This document shows positions 41,710 through 42,280 of a DNA stretch of 64,000 bases, piece after piece (the stretch's first letter is position 1; the number at the start of each line of letters is the position of its first letter). The notes under the pieces are model-generated. The model worked only from the letters and a program-made list of their open reading frames with translations, searched no databases and was not told the origin of the DNA. The position numbers and the translations under genes are program-made. This DNA comes from an uncultured Candidatus Saccharibacteria bacterium (GTDB taxonomy: Bacteria > Patescibacteriota > Minisyncoccia > Phycocordibacterales > GCA-2401445): NCBI GenBank assembly GCA_964436015.1, contig CAYTAR010000001.1, positions 92,321 through 156,320 on the forward strand, given 5' to 3'.

Positions 41710-42280
41710 GTGGTTTCGTTCCTTACGTTGTCAAAGACAATTCGTTTGGAACAGTTTTTATTTTCCTTCATGAGAAGGAAAAGTTTTGGTGGGCACCCAA
41801 ATTGTCGTGAACATCAATCCTATCGCCCACCACTCCGAATTTCTTCGGAAATTTGCGCCACGCGACGCTACGCGTCGCATGGCTTCCATTTGGACAGAAC
41901 TTCCATCGTTTTAACAGTCGGCAAGTCGTCCATCTGGAAATTTTGGGGAGTGGACATGAGGCTTGTCGTCTAAACAGGCAGCCAATTGTCCATCCCCACT
42001 CTCCGCCGAAGCGAAGAGAAATTGTGCGAGAGACAAGCACCAAGTCGCGTCAAGGCGGTTGTATCGTCTCTCGCCAACCGTCCGAAGACGGAAAATGTGG
42101 TGAGTGGGTAGATTGTCTGCCCACTCACCTATGCGCAAGCATGTCGGACTTCGCAGTCATGGCACTTCTCTCTCACGCAAAATTTTTATGTTGGTGTAAA
42201 TTATCAAAGAACTCCTCTACTGCACGAACTCTCGCGCAACAGAGGGAGGGCATATTGTGAGTCATAATCATTTCCTCTAT
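41710..42280 (-). ncRNA. Candidate structured non-coding RNA 5' of the IS110-like gene (bridge-RNA-like hypothesis)
   Basis: About 570 bp without a convincing ORF but with at least six strong local hairpins: ttccttc/gaaggaa; tccgaa/ttcgga; gcgacgc-tac-gcgtcgc; ttccatttggac/gtccatctggaa; ccgcc...ggcgg; and ggtgagtggg-N11-cccactcacc. Confidence 0.25.

What the first reader, a model, noticed from the sequence alone, without database searches (positions are those of the whole stretch)
41710..42280. About 570-bp ORF-free, hairpin-dense region immediately 5' of the recombinase gene: candidate guide or bridge RNA locus
The region has no convincing ORF but at least six strong local stem-loops: gcgacgc-tac-gcgtcgc; ggtgagtggg-N11-cccactcacc; ttccatttggac...gtccatctggaa; ttccttc-atga-gaaggaa; tccgaa-tttc-ttcgga; and ccgcc...ggcgg. 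In characterised IS110/IS1111 elements, the non-coding end upstream of the recombinase encodes a ~150-250-nt bridge RNA with two internal loops that specify target and donor. This region is the obvious place to look for an analogous RNA. It is longer than known bridge RNAs, so it may include a promoter, a leader, or something different.
Basis: partly seen in the sequence, partly recalled or inferred. Interest (0 to 1): 0.7.

Follow-up and report, generated by a model that had tools for sequence, protein, structure and literature searches.

The report
Guide-RNA array beside a TasR gene
The hairpin-dense stretch is not an IS110 bridge RNA but part of a stem-loop TIGR array, a string of about 16 small guide RNAs on both sides of a probably nuclease-dead TasR gene in a candidate-phyla-radiation bacterium; this kind of system was described in 2025-2026, so the locus is a clear new example, not a new kind.

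Summary
Window 41710-42400 has no supported ORF and folds far better than shuffles (z -15.9 on the gene strand).

The bridge-RNA reading is wrong in kind. The 512-aa "recombinase" (40171-41709, minus) passes NCBI's curated TIGR-Tas model (106.5 bits, cut-off 100) and fails the IS110 model (41 bits, cut-off 140). Its best solved relative is TIGR-TasR (PDB 9MTY). Arg35 sits at the first RuvC catalytic position, and there is no conserved serine nucleophile.

The RNA is a tandem array of about 48-nt units: variable stem, CGA, 9-nt spacer A, UG, short loop, CGA, 9-nt spacer B, UG, stem. I count 9 units upstream (42533-41786) and 7 downstream (40167-39565), all on the gene strand and ending at a terminator.

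A covariance model puts its top 15 window hits in this locus, and 84 of 84 hits in 14 related loci lie on the gene strand. The stems covary. Spacers are 47% identical between orthologous arrays, against 89% for the scaffold.

Most likely function, by homology to CsTasR: tigRNA-guided binding of 18-bp DNA sites and transcriptional repression. No target lies in the window.

Left unexplained: a conserved, duplicated 60-nt hairpin and hairpins in the linkers between units.

The parts
42564..42592 (-). Weak sigma-70-like promoter match (TTGACG-17-AATCAT, 9/12) just upstream of the first unit. Candidate promoter of the array-tasR-array transcript.
   Evidence: It is only a consensus match, and the number of such matches in the region is no higher than in shuffles.
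42481..42533 (-). tigRNA unit U0: gggttggtga CGA ATATGCGCA TG GACAC CGA TCACAGCGT TG tcaccaaccc
   Evidence: Strict motif hit with an 11-bp stem. CM R1: 21.9 bits, E 0.003.
42421..42469 (-). tigRNA unit U0b. Spacers GAAAAAGCG / AGGTCCGGC; box D is degenerate (TA); the stem has a bulge.
   Evidence: CM R1: 18 bits, E 0.034.
42339..42394 (-). tigRNA unit U1 with degenerate boxes (TGA..TT..CGA..TA). Spacers GGGATACCC / CGACGATGA; 12-bp stem.
   Evidence: CM R1: 14.5 bits.
42283..42342 (-). U2: a conserved long hairpin, the upstream copy of the 77-nt direct repeat. It is not a canonical unit. Its 3' arm overlaps the 5' stem strand of U3.
   Evidence: Its outer arms are conserved in L004, L013 and L015. 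No target was found when its arms were read as spacers.
42243..42290 (-). tigRNA unit U3: gaagaggg CGA TAGAGGAAA TG ATTA TGA CTCACAATA TG ccctcc
   Evidence: CM R1: 39 bits (member of the training set). The same stem sequence occurs in orthologous units of L004 and L005.
42132..42179 (-). Probable degenerate unit U3b (AGA in place of the first CGA). Spacers GAAGTGCCA / AGTCCGACA; stem of 8 pairs beyond the mismatched A.G box pair.
   Evidence: The CM score is only 9.9 bits, E 4.6, so this is the least certain unit.
42026..42074 (-). tigRNA unit U4: gcgagaga CGA TACAACCGC CT TGACG CGA CTTGGTGCT TG tctctcgc
   Evidence: CM R1: 15.5 bits.
41946..41997 (-). tigRNA unit U5 (first box CAA). Spacers TTGGCTGCC / CAAGCCTCA.
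   Evidence: CM R1: 22.7 bits, E 0.002.
41884..41940 (-). tigRNA unit U6. Spacers CTTGCCGAC / TGGAAGTTC. The 12-position stem has a 2x2 internal mismatch.
   Evidence: Strict motif hit. CM R1: 14.2 bits.
41786..41833 (-). tigRNA unit U7: tggtggg CGA TAGGATTGA TG TTCA CGA CAATTTGGG TG cccacca
   Evidence: CM R1: 40.8 bits (training member). Fixed-gap motif hit. Orthologous to the last unit of L004, L013 and L015, with compensatory stem changes.
41761..42245 (-). Span holding the simple linker hairpins between units, at 42214-42245, 42099-42129, 42078-42091, 41999-42018, 41858-41882, 41834-41849 and 41761-41782. One more lies at 42394-42411.
   Evidence: The hairpin at 41761-41782 is conserved in sequence in orthologous loci. 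Their role is unknown.
40171..41709 (-). tasR gene: a 512-aa TIGR-associated protein with an expanded, probably inactive RuvC-like N-terminal domain, a coiled coil and a Nop-type C-terminal domain.
40117..40167 (-). tigRNA unit D0 (second box CGT). Spacers ACTGTTGAA / AGACTTCCA.
   Evidence: CM R1: 14.5 bits.
40032..40080 (-). tigRNA unit D1. Spacers CCGGAACCA / AATGACAC (spacer B is 8 nt).
   Evidence: CM R1: 16.4 bits.
39940..39987 (-). tigRNA unit D1b. Spacers TGGAGTATA / TATGGAATC.
   Evidence: Strict and fixed-gap motif hits. CM R1: 35.4 bits.
39850..39909 (-). D2: the second copy of the U2 long hairpin (90% identical over 77 nt).
39810..39857 (-). tigRNA unit D2b: gaagaggg CGA GACGGAAAT TG ATTG CGA AGAAAGAGG TA ccctct. 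It is a paralogue of U3 with different spacers.
   Evidence: 36.1 bits.
39727..39785 (-). tigRNA unit D3. Spacers AGACAGTAA / ACGCTGCCA; 13-position stem with 4 G-U pairs.
   Evidence: CM R1: 19.2 bits.
39624..39677 (-). tigRNA unit D4. Spacers ATGAATTAA / TGTGTGTAC. Its stem is paralogous to that of U0.
   Evidence: (family D5). CM R1: 35.8 bits.
39565..39613 (-). tigRNA unit D5. Spacers ATGAAGGCC / AATAGCCGA.
   Evidence: CM R1: 15.8 bits.
39531..39559 (-). Intrinsic-terminator-like hairpin with a T-run, at the end of the downstream array.

Best explanation
The interval is the gene-proximal part of a stem-loop TIGR (tandem interspaced guide RNA) array belonging to a TIGR-Tas system of a Patescibacteria/CPR bacterium.

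Layout. The locus spans about 39531-42592 on the minus strand and is probably one transcript: a weak promoter-like site, 9 guide units, tasR, 7 guide units, then a terminator.

Unit architecture. Each unit is a ~48-nt box C/D-like stem-loop. A terminal stem that varies in sequence but always pairs closes a loop reading CGA (box C), 9-nt spacer A, UG (box D'), a 3-7-nt loop, CGA (box C'), 9-nt spacer B, UG (box D). Each box-C cytosine pairs with a box-D guanine.

Inferred mechanism, by homology to TaTasR, PateTasR and CsTasR. The transcript is cut in the linkers into single tigRNAs. A TasR dimer binds one tigRNA. Spacers A and B pair with adjacent 9-nt stretches on opposite strands of an 18-bp DNA site.

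Inferred function. This TasR has Arg35 where RuvC and IS110 enzymes have the first catalytic Asp. It belongs to the CPR clade with an expanded RuvC domain, for which the preprint shows catalytic inactivity in its one tested member, CsTasR. The complex therefore most likely binds without cutting and acts as an RNA-guided transcriptional repressor.

Shown here: the protein family assignment, the array architecture, its strand and position, stem covariation, and spacer hypervariability.

Inferred only: expression, processing, DNA binding, lack of cleavage, and repression.
For: Protein.
- NCBIfam NF052498 'TIGR-Tas system RNA-guided endonuclease': 106.5 bits, above the cut-off of 100. The IS110 model NF033542 scores 41 bits, below its cut-off of 140.
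- A family profile hits PDB 9MTY (TaTasR) at E 2e-27, against 5e-5 for IS621.
- The AlphaFold model (pLDDT 88.8) has 9MTY as its top Foldseek hit, followed by IS621 and TasH.
- The motif GIR(P/H)RVK replaces the GID motif of IS110, and the column aligned to the IS621 'ESGSS' serine is D/N and not conserved.

RNA.
- The strict motif CGA-N9-TG-N(1-14)-CGA-N9-TG gives 7 hits in the window, all on the minus strand within 39574-42523. Shuffles give 1.26, or 0.04 with a stem of 7 or more.
- The fixed-gap version gives 4 hits against 0.07 expected.
- The top 15 hits of CM R1 in the 64-kb window all lie at 39565-42531 on the minus strand.
- All 84 hits with E <= 0.1 in 14 related loci are on the gene strand. 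In loci that extend on both sides of the gene they lie both upstream and downstream.
- When units are picked by motif alone, 61 fall on the gene strand and 2 on the other. 45 of the 61 have 7-8 of the 8 flanking positions paired.
- The terminal stem is 92% paired and 8 of 9 pairs show double changes. The covariation score is 0.857 against 0.229 for shuffles and 0.21 or less for slid partners.
- Between orthologous arrays, spacers are 47% identical and the scaffold 89% (Fisher p = 3e-24).

Literature. This architecture, the host clade, arrays on both sides of tas, the dead RuvC (R8 in CsTasR) and the repression activity are described in PMC12045711 and bioRxiv 10.64898/2026.09.09.750476.
Against: - There are no expression or processing data for this locus.
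- No 18-bp target with 2 or fewer mismatches lies in the 64-kb window. The 7 hits at 3 mismatches match the roughly 4 expected by chance, and 2 of them are self-overlaps in the array.
- Six of the 16 units have degenerate boxes or weak individual CM scores (E 0.1-5), so some may be decaying.
- The reported CUU processing motif sits at only 7 of 32 stem bases.
- Only the first RuvC catalytic position could be assigned with confidence. Inactivity is inferred, not shown.
- The U2/D2 hairpins and the linker hairpins are not accounted for by the published model.
Confidence: 0.88

Rival explanations
1. IS110/IS1111-type mobile element. The upstream non-coding end encodes a bridge (or seek) RNA whose two loops pair with target and donor DNA, and the protein is an RNA-guided recombinase.
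For: - Weak Pfam hits to Transposase_20 (E 2.5e-4) and DEDD_Tnp_IS110 (E 5.7e-4, below the gathering score).
- Structural similarity to IS621 and ISCro4.
- A GC-rich island lies between housekeeping genes.
- A 77-nt direct repeat lies on both sides of the gene.
Against: - The curated IS110 model scores 41 bits against a cut-off of 140, while the TIGR-Tas model passes.
- The first catalytic Asp is Arg35, and the serine-nucleophile column is D/N and not conserved.
- There is no Rfam hit.
- The RNA region resolves into about 16 repeated 48-nt units on both sides of the gene, not one 150-250-nt two-loop RNA.
- No loop or spacer matches the island flanks.
- No second copy of the element is in the window.
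- The 77-nt repeat is internal to the array, not an element end.
Confidence: 0.03
2. The same TIGR-Tas system, but with TasR as an active RNA-guided nuclease. It would cut both strands of the 18-bp target as TaTasR and ParTasR do, acting against mobile elements and not as a repressor.
For: - NCBIfam names the family an endonuclease.
- A Parcubacteria TasR (ParTasR) is an active nuclease (PMC12045711).
- Only one catalytic position was assigned here.
Against: - Arg35 is nearly invariant in the family at the first catalytic position. This matches R8 of CsTasR, which is shown to be inactive.
- The 512-aa size and the insertion-rich RuvC domain match the CPR dead-TasR clade, not the compact ~330-aa active TasRs.
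- The position I take to be the second catalytic one (T138, in the M-x-LGG motif) varies among T, A, S, V and C across homologues. That assignment is my inference.
Confidence: 0.08
3. A generic structured leader or trailer. The hairpins would be terminators, attenuators or REP-like DNA palindromes with no guide function, and the motif would be coincidental or a relic.
For: - Fourteen terminator-like hairpins are found in the region against 3.4 expected.
- Several linker hairpins have no box motifs.
- Some units are degenerate.
Against: - The motif, the stem covariation and the strict strand bias are conserved across loci whose proteins are only about 45-74% identical.
- G-U pairs in the stems argue for RNA-level structure on the gene strand.
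- Variation confined to the spacers within a conserved scaffold is what is expected of guides, not of terminators.
Confidence: 0.02

Closest known systems
Stem-loop TIGR-Tas systems of the CPR TasR clade, e.g. CsTasR from Candidatus Staskawiczbacteria (Xu et al., bioRxiv 10.64898/2026.09.09.750476; Faure et al. 2025, PMC12045711, Fig. 7)
   Same: - The host is a CPR bacterium.
- The TasR is about 500 aa, with an expanded RuvC domain and Arg at the first catalytic position.
- The units have variable palindromic terminal stems, two ~9-10-nt spacers each bracketed by box C and box D, and a C:G pair between the boxes.
- Arrays lie upstream and downstream of tas on the same strand.
- There is no repeat sequence a CRISPR finder could detect.
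   Different: - Box C here is CGA. PateTasR has CUU and TaTasR has CCA.
- Most units have a plain 3-7-nt loop, not the 5-bp inter-spacer stem reported for CsTasR.
- The CUU motif is not consistently at the stem bases.
- Simple hairpins sit in many linkers.
- A conserved 60-nt hairpin (U2/D2) is present in two copies.
- I could not compare the sequence with CsTasR because it is not available to the tools.
Dual-repeat TIGR-TasR (TaTasR, PDB 9MTY)
   Same: - The Nop-type C-terminal domain is homologous (E 2e-27) and 9MTY is the top fold match.
- Each spacer is preceded by a C-x-A box and followed by UG, and the G pairs with the C.
- Spacers are 9 nt, and targeting uses the two spacers in tandem.
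   Different: - TaTasR has conserved edge and loop repeats, 36-nt tigRNAs, an active DEDD RuvC domain and a Y/H self-processing loop, and is 331 aa.
- Here the edge repeats are replaced by variable stems, the protein is 512 aa, and the first catalytic residue is Arg.
IS110-family bridge recombinases (IS621, PDB 8WT6) and their bridge RNAs
   Same: - The overall architecture is shared: RuvC-like domain, coiled coil and RNA-binding domain (Foldseek E about 1e-9).
- A guide RNA is encoded next to the gene.
- The guide has two programmable segments.
   Different: - This protein has no serine nucleophile and lacks the first Asp of DEDD.
- It fails the curated family model.
- The RNA is an array of many small units, not one ~180-nt bridge RNA.
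- There is no evidence of mobility or of loops that match the flanks.
Archaeal box C/D sRNAs with Nop5
   Same: - The RNA is pseudosymmetric, with two guide segments each bracketed by C and D boxes and closed by a terminal stem.
- It is bound by a coiled-coil dimer of a Nop-domain protein.
   Different: - The boxes are minimal (CGA/UG, not RUGAUGA/CUGA).
- No fibrillarin or L7Ae partner is in evidence.
- The target of characterised Tas proteins is DNA, not RNA.
- The host is bacterial.

Membership tests
TIGR-Tas (stem-loop class) | Tas protein with a Nop-type RNA-binding domain | tested here: met
   NCBIfam NF052498: 106.5 bits, above the cut-off of 100, over aa 211-458. Profile against PDB 9MTY: E 2e-27. 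9MTY is the top Foldseek hit.
TIGR-Tas (stem-loop class) | TasR subtype: an N-terminal RuvC-like domain joined to the Nop domain through a coiled coil | tested here: met
   The model shows N-terminal mixed beta/alpha (aa 30-200), then long helices at 201-284. The Foldseek alignment to 9MTY spans 341 columns, nearly the whole TasR chain. There is a partial Pfam DEDD_Tnp_IS110 hit at aa 180-232.
TIGR-Tas (stem-loop class) | [quoted passage not shown] | tested here: met
   16 units of the form CGA-N9-UG-loop-CGA-N9-UG. The same architecture recurs in homologous loci.
TIGR-Tas (stem-loop class) | Edge repeats replaced by stems that vary in sequence but always pair | tested here: met
   92% of cells are paired; 8 of 9 stem pairs show changes on both sides; the covariation score is 0.857 against 0.229. 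Motif-only selection gives 45 of 61 units with 7-8 of 8 flanking positions paired.
TIGR-Tas (stem-loop class) | Box C pairs with box D, and the same boxes occur in both halves of the unit (pseudosymmetry for a dimer) | tested here: met
   The outer C:G pair is present in 55 of 61 units and the inner G:C pair in 54 of 61.
TIGR-Tas (stem-loop class) | Array on the tas strand, upstream and/or downstream of tas | tested here: met
   Window: 9 units upstream and 7 downstream, all on the minus strand. Related loci: 84 of 84 hits on the gene strand.
TIGR-Tas (stem-loop class) | Spacers vary between units and between related arrays | tested here: met
   60-61 unique spacers among 61 units. Spacer identity is 47% against 89% for the scaffold between orthologous arrays.
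TIGR-Tas (stem-loop class) | CUU trinucleotide at the stem base (the proposed processing site) | tested here: inconclusive
   CTT lies within 8-10 nt of only 7 of 32 stem bases.
TIGR-Tas (stem-loop class) | Array is transcribed and processed into single tigRNAs that co-purify with Tas | not testable with these tools
   This needs small-RNA sequencing or an RNP pull-down.
TIGR-Tas (stem-loop class) | Tandem-spacer recognition of an 18-bp DNA target | not testable with these tools
   No match with 2 or fewer mismatches in the 64-kb window. The rest of the genome is not available, and 18-mers are too short for meaningful searches of the large collections.
Catalytically dead CPR TasR clade | Canonical RuvC acidic residues substituted (R8 and V126 in CsTasR) | tested here: inconclusive
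   The first position is Arg35, in the G-I-R motif, which is nearly invariant. In short homologues this R is residue 8, as in CsTasR. The second position is probably T138 (T/A/S/V/C across the family), but that is assigned by motif only. No residue-level structural alignment was available.
IS110/IS1111 bridge recombinase with bridge RNA | Passes the curated IS110 transposase model | tested here: not met
   NF033542: 41 bits against a cut-off of 140. Pfam DEDD_Tnp_IS110: 20.1 bits against 29.
IS110/IS1111 bridge recombinase with bridge RNA | DEDD RuvC catalytic residues and a serine nucleophile in the Tnp domain | tested here: not met
   G-I-R35 replaces G-I-D. The column aligned to the first serine of the IS621 'ESGSS' motif is N in this protein and D, N or G in homologues, and the neighbouring S column is not conserved. 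That S241 is the IS621 nucleophile is from my own knowledge.
IS110/IS1111 bridge recombinase with bridge RNA | A single ~150-250-nt RNA with two internal loops complementary to target and donor | tested here: not met
   No Rfam match at E <= 1. The region resolves into 48-nt units. No spacer pair matches the flanks at 38.4 or 42.7 kb.
CRISPR array | Direct repeats of 25-36 nt with a conserved sequence | tested here: not met
   The repeat search finds only the two-copy 77-nt repeat and short chance families.

The most novel reading that the evidence does not exclude
The array may hold features that the published TIGR model does not cover.

(a) A conserved ~60-nt hairpin (U2/D2) occurs once on each side of tasR. 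Its 3' arm competes with the stem of the next guide unit for pairing.

(b) Conserved simple hairpins sit in the linkers between units.

(c) Sequence change is sharply confined to the 9-nt spacers. They are 47% identical between orthologous arrays against 89% for the scaffold, and they still differ between loci that encode identical TasR proteins.

The most novel reading is that (a) and (b) are cis-acting processing or switch elements for tigRNA biogenesis, which is unexplained in stem-loop systems. On the same reading, spacers would be diversified in place, by focused mutation or strong diversifying selection on duplicated units, and not acquired as CRISPR spacers are.
Probability: 0.2. Interest if true: 0.6.

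Novelty: new member of a known kind. Interest (0 to 1): 0.3.

Why it matters
Annotation. A gene that sequence-only reading and Pfam point to as an IS110/IS116/IS902-type transposase is in fact a Tas effector. Its 'non-coding junk' encodes about 16 programmable DNA guides. CRISPR finders and Rfam miss such arrays entirely.

Biology. The locus is a clean natural example of the CPR dead-TasR stem-loop class, with arrays on both sides of the gene. It gives a simple, testable unit grammar: stem, CGA, N9, UG, loop, CGA, N9, UG, stem.

The comparison with orthologous arrays bears on two open questions for TIGR systems: how spacers change, and how stem-loop tigRNAs are processed. Change is confined to the spacers, units arise by duplication (U0/D4, U3/D2b), and auxiliary hairpins are conserved. 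None of this is a new kind of system, so the overall interest is modest.

Tried and rejected
- Rfam scan of 37000-44000 at E <= 1 on both strands: no match.
- The search for related loci with the full 38-sequence alignment failed because it had no conserved stretch. I repeated it with 14 closer sequences.
- MAFFT alignment of all 61 units misplaced the 9-nt versus 10-nt spacer B difference. I therefore counted pairs in an anchor-based script and built the CM from a gap-free subset.
- Spacer-target search in the window: both strand arrangements, gaps of 0-2, up to 3 mismatches. Only chance-level hits.
- Scanning the viral or metagenome collections for the 18-mers: considered and rejected. An exact 18-mer is expected by chance a few times in about 1e11 bases, so hits could not be interpreted, and only 8 scans were available for 32 patterns.
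- Reading the U2/D2 hairpin as a guide unit with an extended loop hairpin. Its boxes do not fit (CAG/CAA, extra nucleotides). Its 'spacers' are conserved across orthologues and pair with each other. No target was found. It is left unexplained.
- Protein-coding explanation for the interval: the five ORFs of 75-141 aa overlapping the two arrays have no Pfam support.
- Whether the two small ORFs downstream (116 and 144 aa) belong to the system: they have no Pfam family, no homologue in any related locus, and their own strong promoter. Rejected.
- Cluster look-up to get an organism or accession name for the protein: nothing is recorded.
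Full report
**1. Checking the observation**

The interval lies directly 5' of a 512-aa ORF on the minus strand (40171-41709).

Folded as RNA, 41710-42400 gives -295 kcal/mol on the minus strand, against -202 +/- 5.9 for dinucleotide shuffles (z -15.9). On the plus strand z is -11.8. The ORFs that overlap it have no Pfam support.

The structured region is larger than reported. 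GC content is raised (49-57% against about 40%) from roughly 39.6 to 42.4 kb. The structure extends upstream to about 42533 and resumes downstream of the gene.

**2. The protein is a Tas protein, not an IS110 recombinase**

- Pfam gives only marginal hits: Transposase_20 at E 2.5e-4, and DEDD_Tnp_IS110 below its gathering score.
- The 42 homologues found are from Parcubacteria, Doudnabacteria and other Patescibacteria.
- A profile of the family hits PDB 9MTY at E 2e-27, and IS621 only at 5e-5. 9MTY is the TIGR-TasR complex of Faure et al. 2025 (PMC12045711).
- NCBIfam settles the assignment. The curated model 'TIGR-Tas system RNA-guided endonuclease' (NF052498) scores 106.5 bits, above its cut-off of 100. 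The IS110 transposase model scores 41 bits against a cut-off of 140.
- An AlphaFold model (mean pLDDT 88.8) has 9MTY as its best Foldseek match, followed by IS621/ISCro4 and TasH.
- In the family alignment the N-terminal strand reads G-I-R-(P/H)-R-V-K, where IS110 enzymes have G-I-D. Arg35 therefore occupies the first RuvC catalytic position.
- The column aligned with the serine motif of IS621 ('ESGSS') is Asn here, Asp, Asn or Gly in homologues, and not conserved.
- Xu et al. (bioRxiv 10.64898/2026.09.09.750476) describe this clade: CPR TasR proteins of about 500-550 aa with expanded RuvC domains. In the member they solved, CsTasR, the RuvC domain is catalytically dead, with R8 and V126 at the first two catalytic positions. 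In the shorter homologues of my alignment the G-I-R arginine is residue 8.

**3. The RNA is a stem-loop TIGR array**

A stem search on the minus strand showed several 8-13-bp stems enclosing loops of about 30 nt. The loops share a grammar: stem, CGA, N9, UG, 3-7 nt, CGA, N9, UG, stem.

- The strict motif occurs 7 times in the 64-kb window, always on the minus strand between 39574 and 42523. Shuffles give 1.26 hits, or 0.04 with a stem of 7 or more.
- A fixed-gap version gives 4 hits against 0.07 expected.
- The motif maps onto the published anatomy. In TaTasR each spacer is preceded by box C (CCA) and followed by box D (UG), and the G pairs with the C. Here box C is CGA, with the same C:G pairing in both halves: 55 of 61 outer and 54 of 61 inner pairs.
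- A covariance model was built from 21 gap-free units of this window and three orthologous loci. Its top 15 hits in the window all fall at 39565-42531 on the minus strand. Ten of them were not in the training set. The next hits (E >= 0.9) are scattered.
- With one further degenerate unit, in which AGA replaces the first CGA, I count 9 units upstream (42533-41786) and 7 downstream (40167-39565).
- A terminator-like hairpin closes the downstream array (39531-39559), and a weak promoter-like match precedes the first unit (42564-42592).

**4. Comparative evidence**

I fetched loci encoding relatives with 30-100% identity.

- All 84 CM hits with E <= 0.1 in 14 loci lie on the gene strand. In loci that extend on both sides of the gene they lie both upstream and downstream.
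- Choosing units by box motif alone, with no stem requirement, gives 61 on the gene strand and 2 on the other. 45 of the 61 have 7-8 of the 8 flanking positions paired.
- On the gap-free alignment the terminal stem is 92% paired and 8 of 9 pairs show changes on both sides. The covariation score is 0.857, against 0.229 for shuffles and 0.21 or less for slid partners.
- G-U pairs in the stems, and the better fold on the minus strand, place the structure in RNA of the gene strand.
- Orthologous arrays aligned base by base show that change is concentrated in the spacers. Spacers are 47% identical and the scaffold 89% between L013 and L004 (p = 3e-24). The figures are 85% and 98% between two loci that encode the identical protein.
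- The last unit before the gene is orthologous across loci, with compensatory stem changes.

**5. How it most likely works**

Shown here: the family membership of the protein, the unit grammar, the strand and position of the arrays, stem covariation, and spacer hypervariability.

Inferred from the characterised relatives TaTasR, PateTasR and CsTasR:
- The locus is transcribed and cut in the linkers into single tigRNAs.
- A TasR dimer binds one pseudosymmetric tigRNA.
- Spacers A and B pair with adjacent 9-nt stretches on opposite DNA strands, which makes an 18-bp site.
- With a disabled RuvC domain, the complex blocks transcription instead of cutting.

I could not find a target. No 18-bp match with 2 or fewer mismatches exists in the window in either strand arrangement, and the hits at 3 mismatches are at chance level.

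**6. Rival explanations**

- Bridge RNA. This fails on the protein features, on the RNA architecture, on the lack of complementarity to the flanks, and on copy number.
- Active nuclease. This cannot be excluded by sequence. It is disfavoured by Arg35 and by membership of the expanded-RuvC CPR clade.
- Generic terminators or palindromes. This does not explain the conserved boxes, the covariation, the strand bias or the variation confined to spacers.

**7. Unexplained features**

- A 77-nt direct repeat (42266-42342 and 39833-39909, 90% identical) contains a 60-nt hairpin (U2/D2). Its outer arms are conserved in orthologues while its centre varies. It lacks the boxes, and its 3' arm is also the 5' stem strand of the next unit. 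Treating its arms as spacers finds no target.
Two of the seven (42078-42091 and 41999-42018) have UUCG loops. One (41761-41782) is conserved in sequence across orthologues.
- The CUU processing motif reported for stem-loop systems is not consistently at the stem bases here: it is present at 7 of 32.

**8. Verdict**

This is a clear new member of a recently described kind: a stem-loop TIGR-Tas system with a dead TasR in a CPR bacterium. Interest is modest. The side observations on spacer turnover and auxiliary hairpins are the only parts that may go beyond what is published.

Noticed in passing
window 42283-42342 and 39850-39909 (minus strand); L013 about 2600-2665; L004 about 2395-2445: A conserved ~60-nt hairpin (U2/D2) is present once on each side of tasR, inside a 77-nt direct repeat that is 90% identical. 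Its outer arms are conserved in orthologous loci and its centre is variable. Its 3' arm doubles as the 5' stem strand of the next guide unit, so the two folds exclude each other. It has no box motifs and its function is unknown.
   Followed up: partly
window 42394-42411, 42214-42245, 42099-42129, 42078-42091, 41999-42018, 41858-41882, 41834-41849, 41761-41782; downstream 40093-40116, 39996-40027, 39908-39937, 39790-39811, 39699-39729: Simple GC-rich hairpins sit in most linkers between guide units. Two have UUCG loops and one a GUAA loop. The one after the last upstream unit is conserved in sequence in orthologues. The published descriptions of stem-loop arrays that I read do not mention them.
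   Followed up: partly
L013 2150-3000 vs L015 900-1752 vs L004 1950-2812 (alignment A5): Substitutions are confined to the 9-nt spacers (47% identity against 89% for the scaffold). Loci that encode an identical TasR still differ in the spacers of 2 of the 9 upstream units and 1 downstream unit. One unit (GAATAAAAG / GGTGCGCGC) is fully conserved. Diverged spacers keep about 50% identity, which suggests point-mutational drift or diversifying selection, not wholesale replacement.
   Followed up: partly
window 42481-42533 vs 39624-39677; 42243-42290 vs 39810-39857: Units on opposite sides of the gene share stems but not spacers (U0/D4 with gggttggtg; U3/D2b with gaagaggg). This indicates that the array grew by duplication of units, followed by spacer divergence.
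   Followed up: partly
window 38476-39376 (minus), promoter-like site at 39410-39438: Two orphan ORFs (116 and 144 aa) lie between the TIGR terminator and mnmA. They have their own near-consensus promoter (TTGACA-17-TATACT with TG). They have no Pfam family and no homologue in any related tasR locus.
   Followed up: partly
window about 39500-42600, between mnmA (37325-38404) and mltG/yceG (42755-43807): The whole TIGR-Tas locus is a GC-rich island (49-57% against about 40%) between housekeeping genes. Orthologous loci sit in different neighbourhoods, for example between a class-II aminoacyl-tRNA synthetase gene and hicB/peptidase M16 in L013. This suggests horizontal movement, but no element ends were identified.
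   Followed up: no
window 41472-41514 (inside the tasR coding sequence, aa about 65-79): A 44-nt imperfect palindrome (82% self-complementary) lies in the 5' part of the coding sequence. It is not a covariance-model hit, although the stem-loop TIGR literature reports guide units inside tas coding sequences.
   Followed up: no
window 42185-42213 (minus strand); L013 about 2740-2775: An AT-rich linker, AGTTCTTTGA(T/A)AA(T/C)TTAC(A/G)C(C/T)AACA, in the middle of the upstream array is conserved between this window and orthologous loci. It does not match a sigma-70 promoter well.
   Followed up: no
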